A stretch of 64,000 nt of DNA from Promethearchaeota archaeon (GTDB lineage Archaea > Asgardarchaeota > Lokiarchaeia > Sigyniarchaeales > SOKP01). Within the stretch, counting starts at the first letter, position 1. Each line of letters opens with the position of its first letter. Location: contig JAUVXW010000010.1 of assembly GCA_030603385.1 (NCBI GenBank), forward strand, positions 1-64,000, given 5' to 3'. Below the pieces are notes generated by a model. That model saw only the letters and a list, made by a program, of their open reading frames with translations. It searched no databases and was not told the DNA's origin. Of the stretch, positions 3,025-64,000 are shown piece by piece. The position numbers and the translations under genes were made by a program.

Positions 3025-3582
3025 TTAAACATTTACCCCGTGATTACTTAAAATCTGTTTCACTAAGAGCAAAAAGGCTTCCTCTATATTTTCTCCTAAT
3101 TTTGCACTAGTTTCGATAAAATGACTAGCTTTAATTTTTTCTGCTAAATCCTTTCCTTTTTCAGTAGGAACAACTCTATCATTTGTTAAATCAATTTTAT
3201 TTCCTATTAAAACATAAACTCCTTCTTTTCGAATATATTTCTTAAAATCCCGCAACCATCTAGATTTTATATTATCAAATGTATTATAGCGAGTAACGTC
3301 ATAGACAAGTAGAGCGCCTTCACATCCTTGAAAGTACATTGAGCGAATCACGTTATATTTCTCTTGTCCGGCTAAATCCCACATTATTAGTCGTACTTTA
3401 GTACTTTCCTCTATGTTAACATCTTTTCTTATAATATTTGCGCCTAGTGTTGGCTTATAATCATCTTGAAAGCTGTCCTCACAAAACCGGTTAAGAAGTG
3501 AGGTTTTGCCAACGGCAGCTTCACCCAAAACCGTGATTTTAAATACAAATTCTCGAATTTCCTTAGTTTCTTCCATATTCAT
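3025..3582 (-). CDS. Rab-like small GTPase
   Basis: G1 GEAAVGKT, G2 PTLG, G3 WDLAGQE, G4 NKID, G5 ETSAK; no C-terminal prenylation cysteines. Confidence 0.95.
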   Translation of the reverse strand: MNMEETKEIREFVFKITVLGEAAVGKTSLLNRFCEDSFQDDYKPTLGANIIRKDVNIEESTKVRLIMWDLAGQEKYNVIRSMYFQGCEGALLVYDVTRYNTFDNIKSRWLRDFKKYIRKEGVYVLIGNKIDLTNDRVVPTEKGKDLAEKIKASHFIETSAKLGENIEEAFLLLVKQILSNHGVNV

Positions 3583-4406: not shown

Positions 4407-4952
4407 TTAGTTGAATTTAATATTAATACCAAAATTGCTTAATGCTTGAGCTACCAATCTTCTAAATGCTATTTCAACATTATTGCCAAATTTTGCACTT
4501 GTCTCAATAAAATCGCTTGTTTGAATTTCTTCAGCTAAACTTTGACCCTTTTCTGTAGATACTGTATGTGATTCTTTTAAATCAACTTTATTTCCAATTA
4601 AAATATAAACTCCATCTGAGCGTGCAAATTTTCTGAAATCTTCGAGCCATTTTGATTGAATTCGATCAAAGGTAGCAGGTCTAGTAATATCATATACAAG
4701 AAGGCTTCCAACACATCCTTCAAAAAACATCTTTCGGGTTAAATCGTATTTATCTTGACCAGCAATATCCCAAATAGCAAGTTGAATTTCATATTCTTCG
4801 ATTTTCAACTTCTTCATTACTATATTAACTCCTAAAGTCGGTTGATAGTTCTCTTTAAAACCTTCTTCAGTATAACGGTTTATCAAGGAAGTTTTACCTA
4901 CGGCTGGATCTCCGAGTAAAGCCAATTTCATTATGATTTTCTTATCAGTCAT
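4407..4952 (-). CDS. Rab-like small GTPase
   Basis: Motifs GDPAVGKT, PTLG, WDIAGQD, NKVD and ETSAK. Confidence 0.95.
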   Translation of the reverse strand: MTDKKIIMKLALLGDPAVGKTSLINRYTEEGFKENYQPTLGVNIVMKKLKIEEYEIQLAIWDIAGQDKYDLTRKMFFEGCVGSLLVYDITRPATFDRIQSKWLEDFRKFARSDGVYILIGNKVDLKESHTVSTEKGQSLAEEIQTSDFIETSAKFGNNVEIAFRRLVAQALSNFGINIKFN

Positions 4953-51160: not shown

Positions 51161-51682
51161 ATGCCACAGAAGTTCATACTAAAAATCTTAACAGCCGGGG
51201 AAGGGGGAGTTGGAAAAACAACGCTCCTACATAGGTATGTGGAGGGGAAATTCTCAGCAGATACTCGAATGACGATAGGTGTCGAATTTTTTTTGAAAGA
51301 GACGGAGATCAATGGGAATCAATGCACCCTGCAGCTCTGGGATTTTGGAAGTCAAGAAAGGTTTAGATTTTTGCTTGAAAGCTATGTTCTAGGTGCAAAA
51401 GGTGCAATGCTTATGTTCGACCTCACACGTATGTCATCACTTGGAAACCTTGAACAGTGGCTTAACATCGTTCGCAAGGGAGATCCAAATCTTCCAATTC
51501 TTTTCCTTGGTACTAAATTAGATTTGGAGGATGAAATTCAAGTAGATGATGATTATGCCCAGTCATTTCTTAATGAATACAATTTAATTGACTTTCTTAA
51601 AATCTCATCAAAAACGGGTGAAAATGTAAGTCAAGCATTTGAATTATTAACACAAAAAATCTTAGAGCGACAGACTTATTGA
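51161..51682 (+). CDS. Rab-like small GTPase with a variant G3 motif (WDFGSQ)
   Basis: Motifs GEGGVGKT, MTIGVEF, WDFGSQERF, TKLD and ISSK. Confidence 0.93.
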   Translation: MPQKFILKILTAGEGGVGKTTLLHRYVEGKFSADTRMTIGVEFFLKETEINGNQCTLQLWDFGSQERFRFLLESYVLGAKGAMLMFDLTRMSSLGNLEQWLNIVRKGDPNLPILFLGTKLDLEDEIQVDDDYAQSFLNEYNLIDFLKISSKTGENVSQAFELLTQKILERQTY

Positions 51683-52276: not shown

Positions 52277-52786
52277 ATGTCCAAACTTCTTAAAATAATA
52301 ACAGCCGGAGATGGAGGTGTAGGAAAAACAACACTCCTTTATCGATATGTGGAGAATAGATTCCTAGCAAACACCGCTATGACTCTAGGTGTAGAATTTT
52401 TCATCAAGGAAACTTATATTAAAGGAGAAACAATTAATTTACAAGTTTGGGATTTTGGTGGACAAGATCATTTCAGACCTTTATTAAAAGATTATTCTGT
52501 CGGTGCTAAAGGTGCTCTTTTACTTTTTGACCTTACGAGACCATCAAGCTTAGAAAATATTGAACAATGGGTTAATATTTGTAGAGGTGAAAATCCAGGA
52601 ATCCCGATAATTTTCTTAGGTACTAAATGGGATTTGACTGAATCAATTACTGTCGATGATAAATATGCGCGGAGTTTTCCAAAGGAGTATGGCTTTTTTA
52701 AATATTTAAAAATTTCTTCGAAAACTGGCGCAAACGTGAATTTGGCGTTTAGATTATTAGCAAAAGAAATTATTAAAAATCTTTAG
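52277..52786 (+). CDS. Rab-like small GTPase
   Basis: Motifs GDGGVGKT, MTLGVEF, WDFGGQ, TKWD and ISSK. Confidence 0.93.
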   Translation: MSKLLKIITAGDGGVGKTTLLYRYVENRFLANTAMTLGVEFFIKETYIKGETINLQVWDFGGQDHFRPLLKDYSVGAKGALLLFDLTRPSSLENIEQWVNICRGENPGIPIIFLGTKWDLTESITVDDKYARSFPKEYGFFKYLKISSKTGANVNLAFRLLAKEIIKNL

Positions 52787-62114: not shown

Positions 62115-62348
62115 TTAATCTTCATCTTCATCTTCATCATCTTCTCCCAATAGCGCCTCGATTTTACCTTCTACTTCTTCCACCTTTGCAGAAAGTGATT
62201 CAATTTCTGTATAGTTTTCACATTTTTTACATCCATCATCCTGAAGGCATATATCTAATGTATCACATTTTTCTTCAAGAGCTTCTATTTTGTCTAATAA
62301 TTCTTCTTTTTGCACCTCAAGTTGTTCAATACTCATTTTTAACACCAA
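62115..62348 (-). CDS. Small coiled-coil protein with a central Cys cluster and acidic tail
   Basis: Heptad helices flank CDTLDIC...GCKKC; ends DDEDEDED. Confidence 0.7.
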   Translation of the reverse strand: MVLKMSIEQLEVQKEELLDKIEALEEKCDTLDICLQDDGCKKCENYTEIESLSAKVEEVEGKIEALLGEDDEDEDED

Positions 62349-62499
62349 ATAATATTAAATAAAATAGGATATGTTAATAAATTTTTATTCTTTAAAAGTT
62401 AGAATTTACAGAATACATAAATATACAATAATAAATAGAACTTTCGCATAAACTAATATCAATGGGTAAATAAAAAAAACCATTGTGAAATTGTGAAAT

Positions 62500-63165
62500 T
62501 TAGGGTGTGTCCATAGATGTCTCTTCTTTTTTTCGAATCTTCTTAATTATTTTCTTATAATTTTTAACTGAATTTTTAACTAAATAGTGTGTTTCTTTAG
62601 GGATATCCTCATCTTCAATTTCAAGGTCTTGAATTATAAAATCTAACCCTAAGGTTAATTTATAGGATTCTTCAAGTTCATTCTTGACAAATGAATCTAT
62701 TAATGAGGATTTTCCAACGGCAGCAGCACCTACAAGTAATATTTTGAACCTAAAGTGATTTGAATCAATAACTTCCCCTAACCTTGGTTTGAAATCTAAT
62801 AATGCAGTTAGAGCTAATCGATAAAACAATTTATTAACATTTTTGCTTTTTAATGCCGATGTTTCAATATATTCAAAAAGACTATATTGATTTACCATTT
62901 GTATTATTTTTTCACGAGGAAACGTTTCTCCAATGTCTTTTTTCAAATCATTTTTATTACCCACTAAAATAATTGGGATATTTCCAGACCGTTCGCGTAT
63001 GTCATCAAAATATTCTTCGATTGAATCAAAAGTATCAGGGCGAGATAAATCGAAAACTAAACCTACCGCTGCAACTCCACTAAAAAAACCTGTTTTAAAG
63101 AACTCAAATCGTTCTTGACCGGCTATATCCCACAGACTGAGAGTTAATTTCAAAAGAGATCTCAA
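62500..63165 (-). CDS. Circularly permuted Rab-like small GTPase (G3-G4-G5-G1-G2)
   Basis: WDIAGQERF at aa 12-20, NKND 70-73, ETSA 101-104, GAAAVGKSS 146-154 and YKLTLGLDF 168-176. Confidence 0.85.
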   Translation of the reverse strand: MRSLLKLTLSLWDIAGQERFEFFKTGFFSGVAAVGLVFDLSRPDTFDSIEEYFDDIRERSGNIPIILVGNKNDLKKDIGETFPREKIIQMVNQYSLFEYIETSALKSKNVNKLFYRLALTALLDFKPRLGEVIDSNHFRFKILLVGAAAVGKSSLIDSFVKNELEESYKLTLGLDFIIQDLEIEDEDIPKETHYLVKNSVKNYKKIIKKIRKKEETSMDTP

Positions 63166-63206
63166 ATACTTTTGTTAATAATATAAATTAATTTATGTAT
63201 TTTATA

Positions 63207-63953
63207 TTATTTATTTGAAGTTTTTTCTAAATAAAGGGGAACTGATGATTCCCAAACTCCGATATATTCGTCTAATAAACAAAAACTTAGATTAAACCCC
63301 ATAGTTTTGTAAAATTCTTTAAGAGTCTTAAAATTAAAACTCCACTTATCTCTTTTATGATAGGGATTAATCCCATCATTATCCAGAAAGAGAAAATCAA
63401 TGATTTTTATGATAGATATTGGTAAAAATTTTCCAAAATAAATGATAATTTTAAATACTCTATCTCGAGCATTGATTTCTTTTGGCTTTACAGCGTACGG
63501 TTCGCATATAATTATTTTACGTGCGGACTCCTTAGCCATGTTAATTAATTCAACGTGTTTTGGGTAAACATGGTGCAAAACATCAGATATTACAATCACA
63601 TCGAATTTTTCCCTTAAATAATCTTGAAAATCGAAAATGTCTTTTTGTTTTAATACTATTTTTTTTAGTTTTATGTTCCGTTTTTTTAACTCTTTATTCT
63701 TAATTCGTTTTAAAAATCGATGATTTAGATCAACACCTTCATATTCAATCAAAGGATGCAAGAAACGCATCAAATATCCTGTACCACACGGCAAATCTAA
63801 AACTCTTTTTGGGCCTTTACCGATTAGTTTAGCAATTGTTAAAAACTTTTTATCTTGGTCATAAAGTCTTCTTGTTATAGCATTATAAAGCCAGCCACTA
63901 CGATATATTAGGCTTTTAAAACCATTCAAAACTGTTTTATCTCCTTTAATCAT
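63207..63953 (-). CDS. Class I SAM-dependent methyltransferase
   Basis: Motifs VLDLPCGTG, GVDLN and FDVIVISDVLHH. Confidence 0.88.
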   Translation of the reverse strand: MIKGDKTVLNGFKSLIYRSGWLYNAITRRLYDQDKKFLTIAKLIGKGPKRVLDLPCGTGYLMRFLHPLIEYEGVDLNHRFLKRIKNKELKKRNIKLKKIVLKQKDIFDFQDYLREKFDVIVISDVLHHVYPKHVELINMAKESARKIIICEPYAVKPKEINARDRVFKIIIYFGKFLPISIIKIIDFLFLDNDGINPYHKRDKWSFNFKTLKEFYKTMGFNLSFCLLDEYIGVWESSVPLYLEKTSNK

Positions 63954-64000
63954 TGAAATATGTGAAAATTCGTCTTGTTAAATCTGAAAAATTAAGAGAT

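What the first reader, a model, noticed from the sequence alone, without database searches (positions are those of the whole stretch)
62500..63165. Circularly permuted Rab-like GTPase with motif order G3-G4-G5-G1-G2
Seen: the 221-aa ORF starts at strand beta3 (KLTLSLWDIAGQERF) and runs through G4 (NKND), G5 (ETSA) and helix 5. After a ~15-aa linker it supplies beta1 and the P-loop (FKILLVGAAAVGKSS), helix 1, switch I (YKLTLGLDF) and beta2 (IIQDLEI), then a charged tail. Each G motif occurs exactly once, and the new termini fall in the beta2-beta3 hairpin, so the halves complement into one complete domain. Only 41 bp separate it from the upstream gene, and no G1/G2 is coded there. Established: the known permuted GTPases (YlqF/YawG/RsgA family) have the order G4-G5-G1-G2-G3, and Ras-superfamily proteins are G1-G5. 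Inference: this is a different permutation of a Ras/Rab fold, probably made by tandem duplication and trimming. It cuts the interswitch that links switch I and II, so it could have altered switching or polymerise by domain swapping.
Basis: partly seen in the sequence, partly recalled or inferred. Interest (0 to 1): 0.88.

Follow-up and report, generated by a model that had tools for sequence, protein, structure and literature searches.

The report
Circularly permuted Rab-like GTPase, Asgard archaea
This gene encodes a real, strongly conserved small GTPase of Lokiarchaeia-type Asgard archaea whose Rab-like domain starts at strand 3 and ends at strand 2; eukaryotic cpRAS proteins have the same rearrangement, so it is an apparently undescribed archaeal variant of a known oddity, not a new kind of protein.

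Summary
ORF 62503-63153(-) most likely starts at TTG 63153 and gives 217 aa. It carries one copy of each G motif in the order G3-G4-G5-G1-G2. Pfam Ras and every solved Rab match it as two swapped pieces, with the cut in the beta2-beta3 turn.

It is not a fragment or a mis-assembly:
- More than 100 full-length homologues start at the same place.
- 67 of 400 Asgard genomes have it, including 49 of 53 in the window's genus, almost always as one copy.
- dN/dS is about 0.1.
- Independent metagenome contigs bridge both ends of the gene.
- AlphaFold2 gives one compact domain (pTM 0.78).

After un-permuting, 25 permuted proteins form one clade (100/99) inside the genome's canonical small GTPases. Their nearest neighbours, with weak support, are a tandem pair of canonical GTPase genes.

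Most subfamilies end in a transmembrane anchor. The window's form has lost it and keeps a cationic amphipathic helix (+8).

cpRAS (Elias & Novotny 2008) has the same order, but it is RAS-like, eukaryotic and embedded in large proteins. I found no paper describing the archaeal family. This scan already reached the same reading on another genome (e1-4886903).

Verdict: new variant of a known kind, moderate interest. Biochemistry and partners are untested.

The parts
62503..63153 (-). Coding sequence of the permuted Rab-like GTPase, 217 aa from TTG 63153 (stop codon 62500-62502). An alternative TTG at 63165 would add 4 residues.
   Evidence: homologues and P0002 start here; Pfam Ras, two stretches; dN/dS about 0.1
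63181..63187 (-). TATA-like box TTTATAT, about 31 nt upstream of TTG 63153. It implies the gene's own promoter and a very short leader (inferred).
   Evidence: read from the sequence; no transcription-start data
63115..63150 (-). Strand beta3 and G3/switch II start (KLTLSLWDIAGQ, residues 2-13). This is the new N-terminus.
   Evidence: (W8, D9 invariant; G12, Q13 at least 90%)
62947..62958 (-). G4, NKND (residues 66-69)
   Evidence: N66, K67, D69 invariant
62854..62862 (-). G5, TSA (residues 98-100)
   Evidence: T98, S99 invariant
62758..62796 (-). Conserved linker joining helix 5 to strand 1 (DFKPRLGEVIDSN, residues 120-132; P-R-L-G-E nearly invariant)
   Evidence: coil followed by a short strand
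62707..62730 (-). G1 / P-loop, GAAAVGKS (residues 142-149)
   Evidence: (G142, G147, K148 invariant)
62620..62664 (-). G2/switch I and strand beta2 (YKLTLGLDFIIQDLE, residues 164-178). Rab-type T-x-G-x-D-F; T167 invariant.
   Evidence: aligned to Rab11 TIGVEF; switch I has low pLDDT, as usual for this loop
62515..62598 (-). C-terminal helix (residues 186-213). Its 18-residue core LVKNSVKNYKKIIKKIRK has hydrophobic moment 0.73 and net charge +8. In orthologues it is followed by a linker and a transmembrane anchor, which is absent here.

Best explanation
The gene encodes a functional small GTPase of the Ras superfamily, closest to Rabs, in which the polypeptide starts at strand beta3 and ends after strand beta2. 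A conserved 13-residue linker (..KPRLGE..) joins helix 5 to strand 1. The folded domain is the ordinary G domain with an intact nucleotide pocket, so it most likely binds GTP/GDP and cycles as a molecular switch (inferred from motifs, selection and the model; not assayed). The family arose once within one lineage of Lokiarchaeia-type Asgard archaea. It probably arose by fusion and trimming of a tandem pair of canonical GTPase genes, independently of eukaryotic cpRAS (inferred). The C-terminus that follows beta2 carries the localisation element. In most subfamilies and outgroup genera this is a C-terminal transmembrane anchor, so the family is basically membrane-bound. The window's subgroup has lost the anchor and keeps only a strongly cationic amphipathic helix. 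That helix would give peripheral, possibly regulated, membrane binding (inferred, about 55%). Effector contact is expected through the conserved Rab-like switch/interswitch surface (F172, W8, switch II aromatics).
For: Permuted order and exact cut point. Motifs are invariant across 34 diverse members. Conservation: 120 nearest homologues are full length and all permuted; about a dozen clusters at 50% identity all start at beta3. The gene is present in 67 of 400 genomes of the phylum and 49 of 53 in the genus, nearly always as a single copy. Purifying selection: median dN/dS 0.096 over 154 pairs. Fold: AlphaFold2 pLDDT 78 and pTM 0.78, with all strands and helices present in permuted order. Foldseek finds Rab6, Sec4, Rab11 and Rab43 at 1.6-2.0 A over the beta3-alpha5 half. 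The shape search superposes 149 of residues 1-156 on a canonical Ras-family model at 2.1 A. After un-permuting, the protein aligns collinearly with about 55 canonical paralogues of its own genome. Single origin: 25 permuted sequences form a clade at 100/99, and the neighbour is the clade of tandem gene pairs. Adjacent canonical genes mimic the permuted order across their boundary. Membrane element: transmembrane tails occur in the outgroup genera and in most subfamily representatives; the amphipathic +8 helix is. Independent assemblies bridge the gene ends.
Against: No biochemical or structural data exist. The P-loop has Ala-Ala where Ras has Gly12-Gly13 (GAAAVGKS), which could slow hydrolysis. 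Model coordinates could not be inspected, so pocket closure rests on pTM and superpositions. The sister relation to the tandem pair is weakly supported (76/26). Only paralogues of one genome were used as the canonical background. No eukaryotic cpRAS sequence could be put in the tree, so independence rests on motif type (Rab-like against RAS-like TIE), domain architecture and narrow distribution. Membrane binding by the helix is inferred from composition alone. Transcription is hinted at only by one contig from an RNA library.
Confidence: 0.72

Rival explanations
1. The archaeal family and eukaryotic cpRAS share one origin, either as an Asgard ancestor of cpRAS or by transfer between domains, so this would be the prokaryotic root of a LECA-era gene.
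For: The motif order and cut point are identical. Asgard archaea are the source of many eukaryotic small GTPase lineages (established knowledge). CPRas is considered possibly present in LECA (PMC13393502).
Against: cpRAS is classified inside the RAS family proper, with the TIE G2 motif, and sits inside 840-3900-aa proteins with VWA or macroglobulin-like domains. The archaeal protein has a Rab-type T-x-G-x-D-F and WDxxGQERF, and its 60 best solved matches are all Rabs. It is always N-terminal with membrane tails. It is confined to one order-level lineage, 67 of 400 genomes, and nests among local canonical paralogues.
Confidence: 0.07
2. The protein binds nucleotide but is a very slow or inactive GTPase. 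It would act as a constitutive scaffold or adaptor rather than a cycling switch.
For: Ala-Ala is conserved at the Ras Gly12/Gly13 positions of the P-loop in the short subfamily. No GAP- or GEF-like gene (roadblock or longin) lies next to it.
Against: The catalytic Gln of G3, Thr of G2, Lys/Ser of G1, NKxD and TSA are invariant or nearly so, and the gene is under strong purifying selection. Many Rabs also lack Gly at position 12 (established knowledge; Rab11 has GDSGVGKS).
Confidence: 0.15
3. Because the interswitch hairpin is cut, beta2 of one chain pairs with beta3 of another, giving domain-swapped dimers or filaments.
For: The termini lie in the two paired edge strands of a hairpin, a topology that permits swapping in principle (inference only).
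Against: The monomer model is confident as a closed single domain (pTM 0.78). Nothing in the sequence or its conservation demands oligomerisation.
Confidence: 0.08
4. The ORF is a strain-specific remnant of a tandem two-domain GTPase, or a product of mis-assembly.
For: Tandem canonical GTPase genes and eukaryotic multi-GTPase proteins align with the query in the same order.
Against: The same start and end occur in over 100 independent assemblies. Orthologues are single copy in 67 genomes. dN/dS is about 0.1. All longer relatives carry the permuted domain at their very N-terminus plus unrelated tails. Independent contigs bridge both gene ends.
Confidence: 0.01

Closest known systems
cpRAS domain of eukaryotic CPRas proteins (Elias & Novotny 2008, Biol Direct 3:21, PMC2430557)
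   Same: Same circular permutation, G3-G4-G5-G1-G2, cut between strands 2 and 3, with helix 5 linked directly to strand 1. All G motifs are retained.
   Different: cpRAS is a RAS-family domain (TIE G2 motif). It is eukaryote-only and embedded after a 40-66-residue leader in 840-3900-aa proteins with VWA/Sec23-24 trunk or macroglobulin-like domains. The archaeal family is Rab-like, is always the very N-terminus of the protein, is stand-alone or followed by a membrane anchor, and is restricted to one Asgard lineage.
Canonical Asgard Rab-like small GTPases (e.g. Thorarchaeota Rab, PDB 7ezb) and eukaryotic Rabs (Rab11, Rab7, Rab2, Rab4)
   Same: Best sequence and fold matches. Shared features are WDxxGQERF, T-x-G-x-D-F, NKxD, TSA, and the aromatic residues of the Rab effector surface. 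About 55 canonical paralogues lie in the same genome.
   Different: Order of the chain. There is no C-terminal Cys prenylation motif. The tail leaves from strand 2 rather than helix 5. The P-loop is GAAAVGKS.
YlqF/YawG/RsgA (YRG) circularly permuted GTPases
   Same: P-loop GTPases with a circularly permuted G domain that still binds and hydrolyses GTP.
   Different: A different cut (G4-G5-G1-G2-G3, between strand 3 and helix 2), a different superfamily branch (TRAFAC ribosome-assembly factors), and universal distribution. RsgA Pfam scores only 14.8 bits against a cut-off of 30.
Arf/Sar GTPases (comparison of mechanism only, from general knowledge)
   Same: A membrane-binding amphipathic helix lies next to the interswitch strands.
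   Different: In Arf the helix is N-terminal and the chain order is canonical. No evidence here for an interswitch toggle. Pfam Arf scores far below Ras (34 against 122 bits).

Membership tests
Ras superfamily small GTPase (Pfam PF00071 Ras), Rab-like | Significant match to the Ras family profile | tested here: met
   121.6 bits against a gathering cut-off of 21.6, in two stretches. The top 60 solved matches are all Rabs, E down to 6e-39.
Ras superfamily small GTPase (Pfam PF00071 Ras), Rab-like | All five G motifs present with their key residues (GxxxxGK[ST], switch I Thr, DxxGQ, NKxD, [ST]SA) | tested here: met
   each occurs once and is invariant or at least 90% conserved in 34 members.
Ras superfamily small GTPase (Pfam PF00071 Ras), Rab-like | Canonical chain order G1-G2-G3-G4-G5 | tested here: not met
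   The order is G3-G4-G5-G1-G2.
Ras superfamily small GTPase (Pfam PF00071 Ras), Rab-like | C-terminal Cys prenylation motif of eukaryotic Rabs | tested here: not met
   The tail ends ...KKEETSMDTP with no Cys. Orthologues use a transmembrane segment instead.
Ras superfamily small GTPase (Pfam PF00071 Ras), Rab-like | GTP binding and hydrolysis | not testable with these tools
   Needs purified protein.
cpRAS (Elias & Novotny 2008) | Permuted order G3-G4-G5-G1-G2 with the cut in the beta2-beta3 turn | tested here: met
   the definition is.
cpRAS (Elias & Novotny 2008) | Affiliation with the RAS family proper (TIE G2 motif) | tested here: not met
   G2 is KLTLGLDF and the best matches are Rabs.
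cpRAS (Elias & Novotny 2008) | Embedded in large proteins with a VWA or COG2373/macroglobulin-like region | tested here: not met
   217 aa, stand-alone. The longer relatives have no Pfam domain in their tails.
cpRAS (Elias & Novotny 2008) | Common descent with eukaryotic cpRAS sequences | not tested
YlqF/YawG/RsgA permuted GTPases | Order G4-G5-G1-G2-G3 | tested here: not met
   G3 precedes G4 at the N-terminus. RsgA_GTPase scores 14.8 bits against a cut-off of 30.
Tail-anchored membrane proteins | Single hydrophobic transmembrane segment at the extreme C-terminus | tested here: not met
   For the window's protein the highest 19-residue hydropathy is 1.61, and it lies in strand 1. Orthologues in five other genera and in some species of the same genus score 2.6-3.6 at the C-terminus.

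The most novel reading that the evidence does not exclude
The permutation is adaptive because it hangs the membrane element (transmembrane anchor or cationic helix) directly on interswitch strand beta2. Nucleotide-dependent movement of the interswitch would then be mechanically coupled to the membrane anchor. That would be an Arf-like switch-to-membrane coupling invented independently in a Rab-like GTPase of Asgard archaea, with possible charge-paired regulation by the conserved acidic coiled-coil neighbour.
Probability: 0.1. Interest if true: 0.8.

Novelty: new variant of a known kind. Interest (0 to 1): 0.55.

Why it matters
Anand and colleagues argued that cutting the beta2-beta3 turn of a GTPase should prevent folding (quoted in PMC2430557). 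cpRAS was the only counter-example, and it has never been characterised. Here the same permutation appears in a small, soluble or tail-anchored archaeal protein that is under strong purifying selection. Such a protein should be easy to express, assay and crystallise. It therefore offers a tractable model for how the Ras fold tolerates a broken interswitch. It also adds an unrecorded architecture, including membrane-anchored forms, to the small-GTPase repertoire of the archaea closest to eukaryotes. If the two permutations are independent, this is a case of convergent topology change.

Tried and rejected
- Homodimer prediction (two copies with GTP and Mg): score 0.00, no verdict. It is not evidence either way.
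- Search for eukaryotic cpRAS among longer homologues and library representatives: none retrieved, so there is no direct tree with cpRAS.
  - The eukaryotic hits with 77-85% query coverage (Rotaria, Stentor and others) are tandem multi-GTPase proteins.
  - P0175, which looked permuted, is a fragment of such a tandem protein.
- Apparent permuted hits with internal stop codons in G203 and G208 are two adjacent canonical genes.
- An apparent collinear hit in a Promethearchaeum sp. MAG (G403:C85) is a canonical N-terminal G domain with a long tail.
- Lokiarchaeum ossiferum, Harpocratesius repetitus and Heimdallarchaeum aukensis gave no collinear hit with this query. That means "not found with this query", not proven absence.
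- Five literature searches for an Asgard permuted small GTPase found nothing relevant. The library is incomplete.
- The ESM Atlas feature search returned only generic small-GTPase clusters.
- RNA evidence: one metatranscriptome library has contigs over 62515-62799. DNA carry-over cannot be excluded, so transcription is not shown.
- Pfam found nothing in the tails of the long forms.
- Comparing each half of the protein with each member of the tandem pair gave no asymmetry: 44/36% for the first half and 43/43% for the second.

Full report
**1. What is in the sequence**

The minus strand holds an ORF at 62500-63165, 221 codons counted from TTG 63165. The frame is open for only 224 codons from stop to stop.

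Homologues almost all begin M-(K/L)-x-T-L-S-L-W-D at the position of a second TTG at 63153. The 100%-identical database record P0002 is 217 aa. A TTTATAT box at 63187-63181 lies about 31 nt upstream of that codon. I therefore take 62503-63153 (217 aa) as the gene. The spacer to the upstream methyltransferase gene (63207-63953) is then 53 bp.

In 217-aa numbering the motifs occur once each, in this order:
- G3: WDIAGQ, residues 8-13
- G4: NKND, residues 66-69
- G5: TSA, residues 98-100
- G1: GAAAVGKS, residues 142-149
- G2: YKLTLGLDF, residues 164-172

Pfam Ras scores 121.6 bits (cut-off 21.6) in two stretches, with residues 7-119 matching profile positions 48-158. A profile of the family matches Rab11 as profile 135-186 to chain 6-57 and profile 6-117 to chain 59-167. 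Only residue 58 of Rab11, in the beta2-beta3 turn, separates the two pieces.

**2. It is a real, conserved gene**

- The 120 nearest database proteins are 71-100% identical, 208-276 aa long and cover 87-100% of the query. All have the same order and the same N-terminus.
- The exhaustive search of 50%-identity representatives finds about a dozen clusters that match collinearly from their residues 2-19. All other hits are either canonical GTPases (two swapped stretches) or tandem multi-GTPase proteins (three to six stretches).
- Longer relatives (316-755 aa) carry the permuted domain at their very N-terminus. It is followed by unrelated tails, never by a second G domain.
- In the window's own genome there is one permuted copy among about 55 canonical small GTPases.
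- Across 400 genomes of the phylum, 67 have it at E <= 1e-30. That is 49 of 53 in the window's genus, 63 of 134 in its family, 3 of 14 in a sister family and none elsewhere. It is almost always a single copy.
- Record titles name these genomes Promethearchaeota (Lokiarchaeota-type) MAGs from marine sediment and cold seeps.
- Nei-Gojobori dN/dS over the G domain has a median of 0.096 for 154 pairs with dS < 1.5. The window against its nearest relative gives 0.10.
- Contigs of independent metagenome runs bridge 62870-63494 and 62924-64000, which covers the N-terminus, the spacer and the methyltransferase gene. Another bridges 62263-62557, the 3' end.

Fragment, pseudogene and mis-assembly readings are excluded.

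**3. Fold**

AlphaFold2 with a 34-sequence alignment gives mean pLDDT 78 and pTM 0.78. The order of elements is beta3, alpha2, beta4, alpha3, beta5, alpha4, beta6, alpha5, linker, beta1, alpha1, switch I (low pLDDT at 159-170, as usual for this loop), beta2, and then a long helix at 186-213.

Foldseek aligns the beta3-to-alpha5 half to Rab6, Sec4, Rab11 and Rab43 at 1.6-2.0 A. This is the limit for a sequential aligner.

The shape search of the ESM Atlas superposes 149 of residues 1-156 on a canonical 185-aa Ras-family model at 2.1 A. That is more than a sequential alignment could give. It suggests that strand 1, the P-loop and helix 1 sit in their canonical places; this is my inference about how that tool aligns. 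I could not inspect coordinates, so closure of the pocket rests on pTM and these superpositions.

**4. Relationships**

I moved the beta1-to-beta2 segment to the front, in a script and for alignment only. The protein then aligns collinearly over about 165 positions with the canonical paralogues. The best match is E 1.7e-37, to a tandem pair at G000:C25:25277-26534.

In a careful maximum-likelihood tree of 78 rows, 25 permuted sequences form one clade with support 100/99. They include short, tail-anchored and long forms. Their neighbour is the clade of tandem gene pairs, but only at 76/26. Together with one more paralogue the support is 86/91. A divergent long form (P0163, degenerate G3) and a false positive (P0175) fall outside this clade.

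In two genomes of the genus, two canonical genes lying 21 bp apart, read across their boundary, give the permuted order. This shows how duplication, fusion and trimming could have made the family. That origin is plausible but not shown.

**5. The tail**

After beta2 comes an acidic turn with an invariant Pro, and then a helix. Its core, LVKNSVKNYKKIIKKIRK, has hydrophobic moment 0.73 and net charge +8.

Orthologues in five other genera, and some species of the same genus, are 254-287 aa and end in a strongly hydrophobic segment (19-residue hydropathy 2.6-3.6). Most 50%-cluster representatives also end this way. The long forms have a beta-rich region of unknown family plus one or two transmembrane helices.

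The family is therefore basically membrane-anchored through its C-terminus. The window's subgroup, which is the commonest in the databases (114 of the 120 nearest hits), has lost the anchor and kept the cationic helix. Peripheral membrane binding is my inference.

From general knowledge of Ras structures, the beta2-beta3 turn lies at the same pole of the domain as the ends of strand 1 and helix 5. That would explain two things: why a short linker suffices, and why the anchor leaves from roughly the usual membrane-facing side.

**6. Comparison with what is known**

That is out of date. Elias and Novotny (2008, PMC2430557) described cpRAS with exactly this G3-G4-G5-G1-G2 order and the same cut.

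cpRAS differs in three ways. It is a RAS-family domain with the TIE motif. It is found only in eukaryotes. It sits inside 840-3900-aa proteins with VWA or macroglobulin-like regions.

The archaeal protein has Rab-type motifs, and its 60 best solved matches are all Rabs, including an Asgard Rab, 7ezb. It is N-terminal and membrane-tailed. It is confined to one lineage and nests among local paralogues. I therefore judge it an independent second case, with about 7% for common origin. No cpRAS sequence could be brought into a tree here.

Five literature searches found no description of a permuted small GTPase in Asgard archaea.

This scan noted the same family earlier on other genomes. A follow-up (e1-4886903) reached the same cpRAS comparison. 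My tests were made independently on this window.

**7. Context**

The order methyltransferase, permuted GTPase, 77-aa acidic coiled-coil protein, acyl-CoA dehydrogenase homologue is kept through the genus and partly in three other genera. No roadblock, longin or other GAP/GEF-like gene is adjacent. Partners are unknown.

**8. Verdict**

This is a genuine, selected, circularly permuted Rab-like GTPase. It is most likely a nucleotide switch with a C-terminal membrane element. It is a new archaeal variant of a permutation already known from eukaryotic cpRAS. GTPase activity, oligomeric state, membrane binding and function are untested. The homodimer prediction gave no verdict.

Noticed in passing
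window 62115-62348 (-): A 77-aa acidic coiled-coil protein with four Cys (CX5C...CX2C) and a poly-Asp/Glu tail lies just downstream of the GTPase gene. It keeps that position through the genus and in genera g11, g3 and g7. There are only weak ZapB-like Pfam hits. Its negative tail and the GTPase's +8 helix could be a charge-matched pair (speculation).
   Followed up: partly
G000:C25:25277-26534 (own genome) and L049:5327-6394: Tandem pairs of canonical small GTPase genes, 21-148 bp apart, are the nearest canonical relatives of the permuted family. Read across their boundary they give the G3-G5/G1-G2 order.
   Followed up: partly
window 3025-3582(-), 4407-4952(-), 51161-51682(+), 52277-52786(+): Four canonical small GTPase genes lie in the same 64-kb window, two of them as near-identical neighbours. 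The genome has about 55 in all.
   Followed up: no
L045:5912-7231; P0124, P0126-P0128, P0130: These are long forms of the permuted GTPase (410-755 aa). They have a conserved beta-rich region (motif ...EFNITPxxxG...) with no Pfam match, followed by one or two transmembrane helices. They occur in a sister family of the same order.
   Followed up: partly
window 62707-62730 (-): The P-loop reads GAAAVGKS, with Ala-Ala conserved at the positions of Ras Gly12/Gly13 in the short subfamily. The long forms have GAAGVGKT or GDSGVGKT.
   Followed up: no
L061, L065-L067 (record titles): MAGs deposited as Hodarchaeota, Hermodarchaeota, Odinarchaeota or Thorarchaeota carry orthologues 69-73% identical to the window's protein (L067 is G256, same family, genus g12; the genus of the others was not checked). 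The deposited phylum labels therefore look unreliable.
   Followed up: no
window 63207-63953 (-): A class I SAM-dependent methyltransferase (Methyltransf_12/25/11) sits directly upstream on the same strand. It is syntenic with the GTPase gene in the genus and in genera g11 and g3. Its substrate is unknown.
   Followed up: partly
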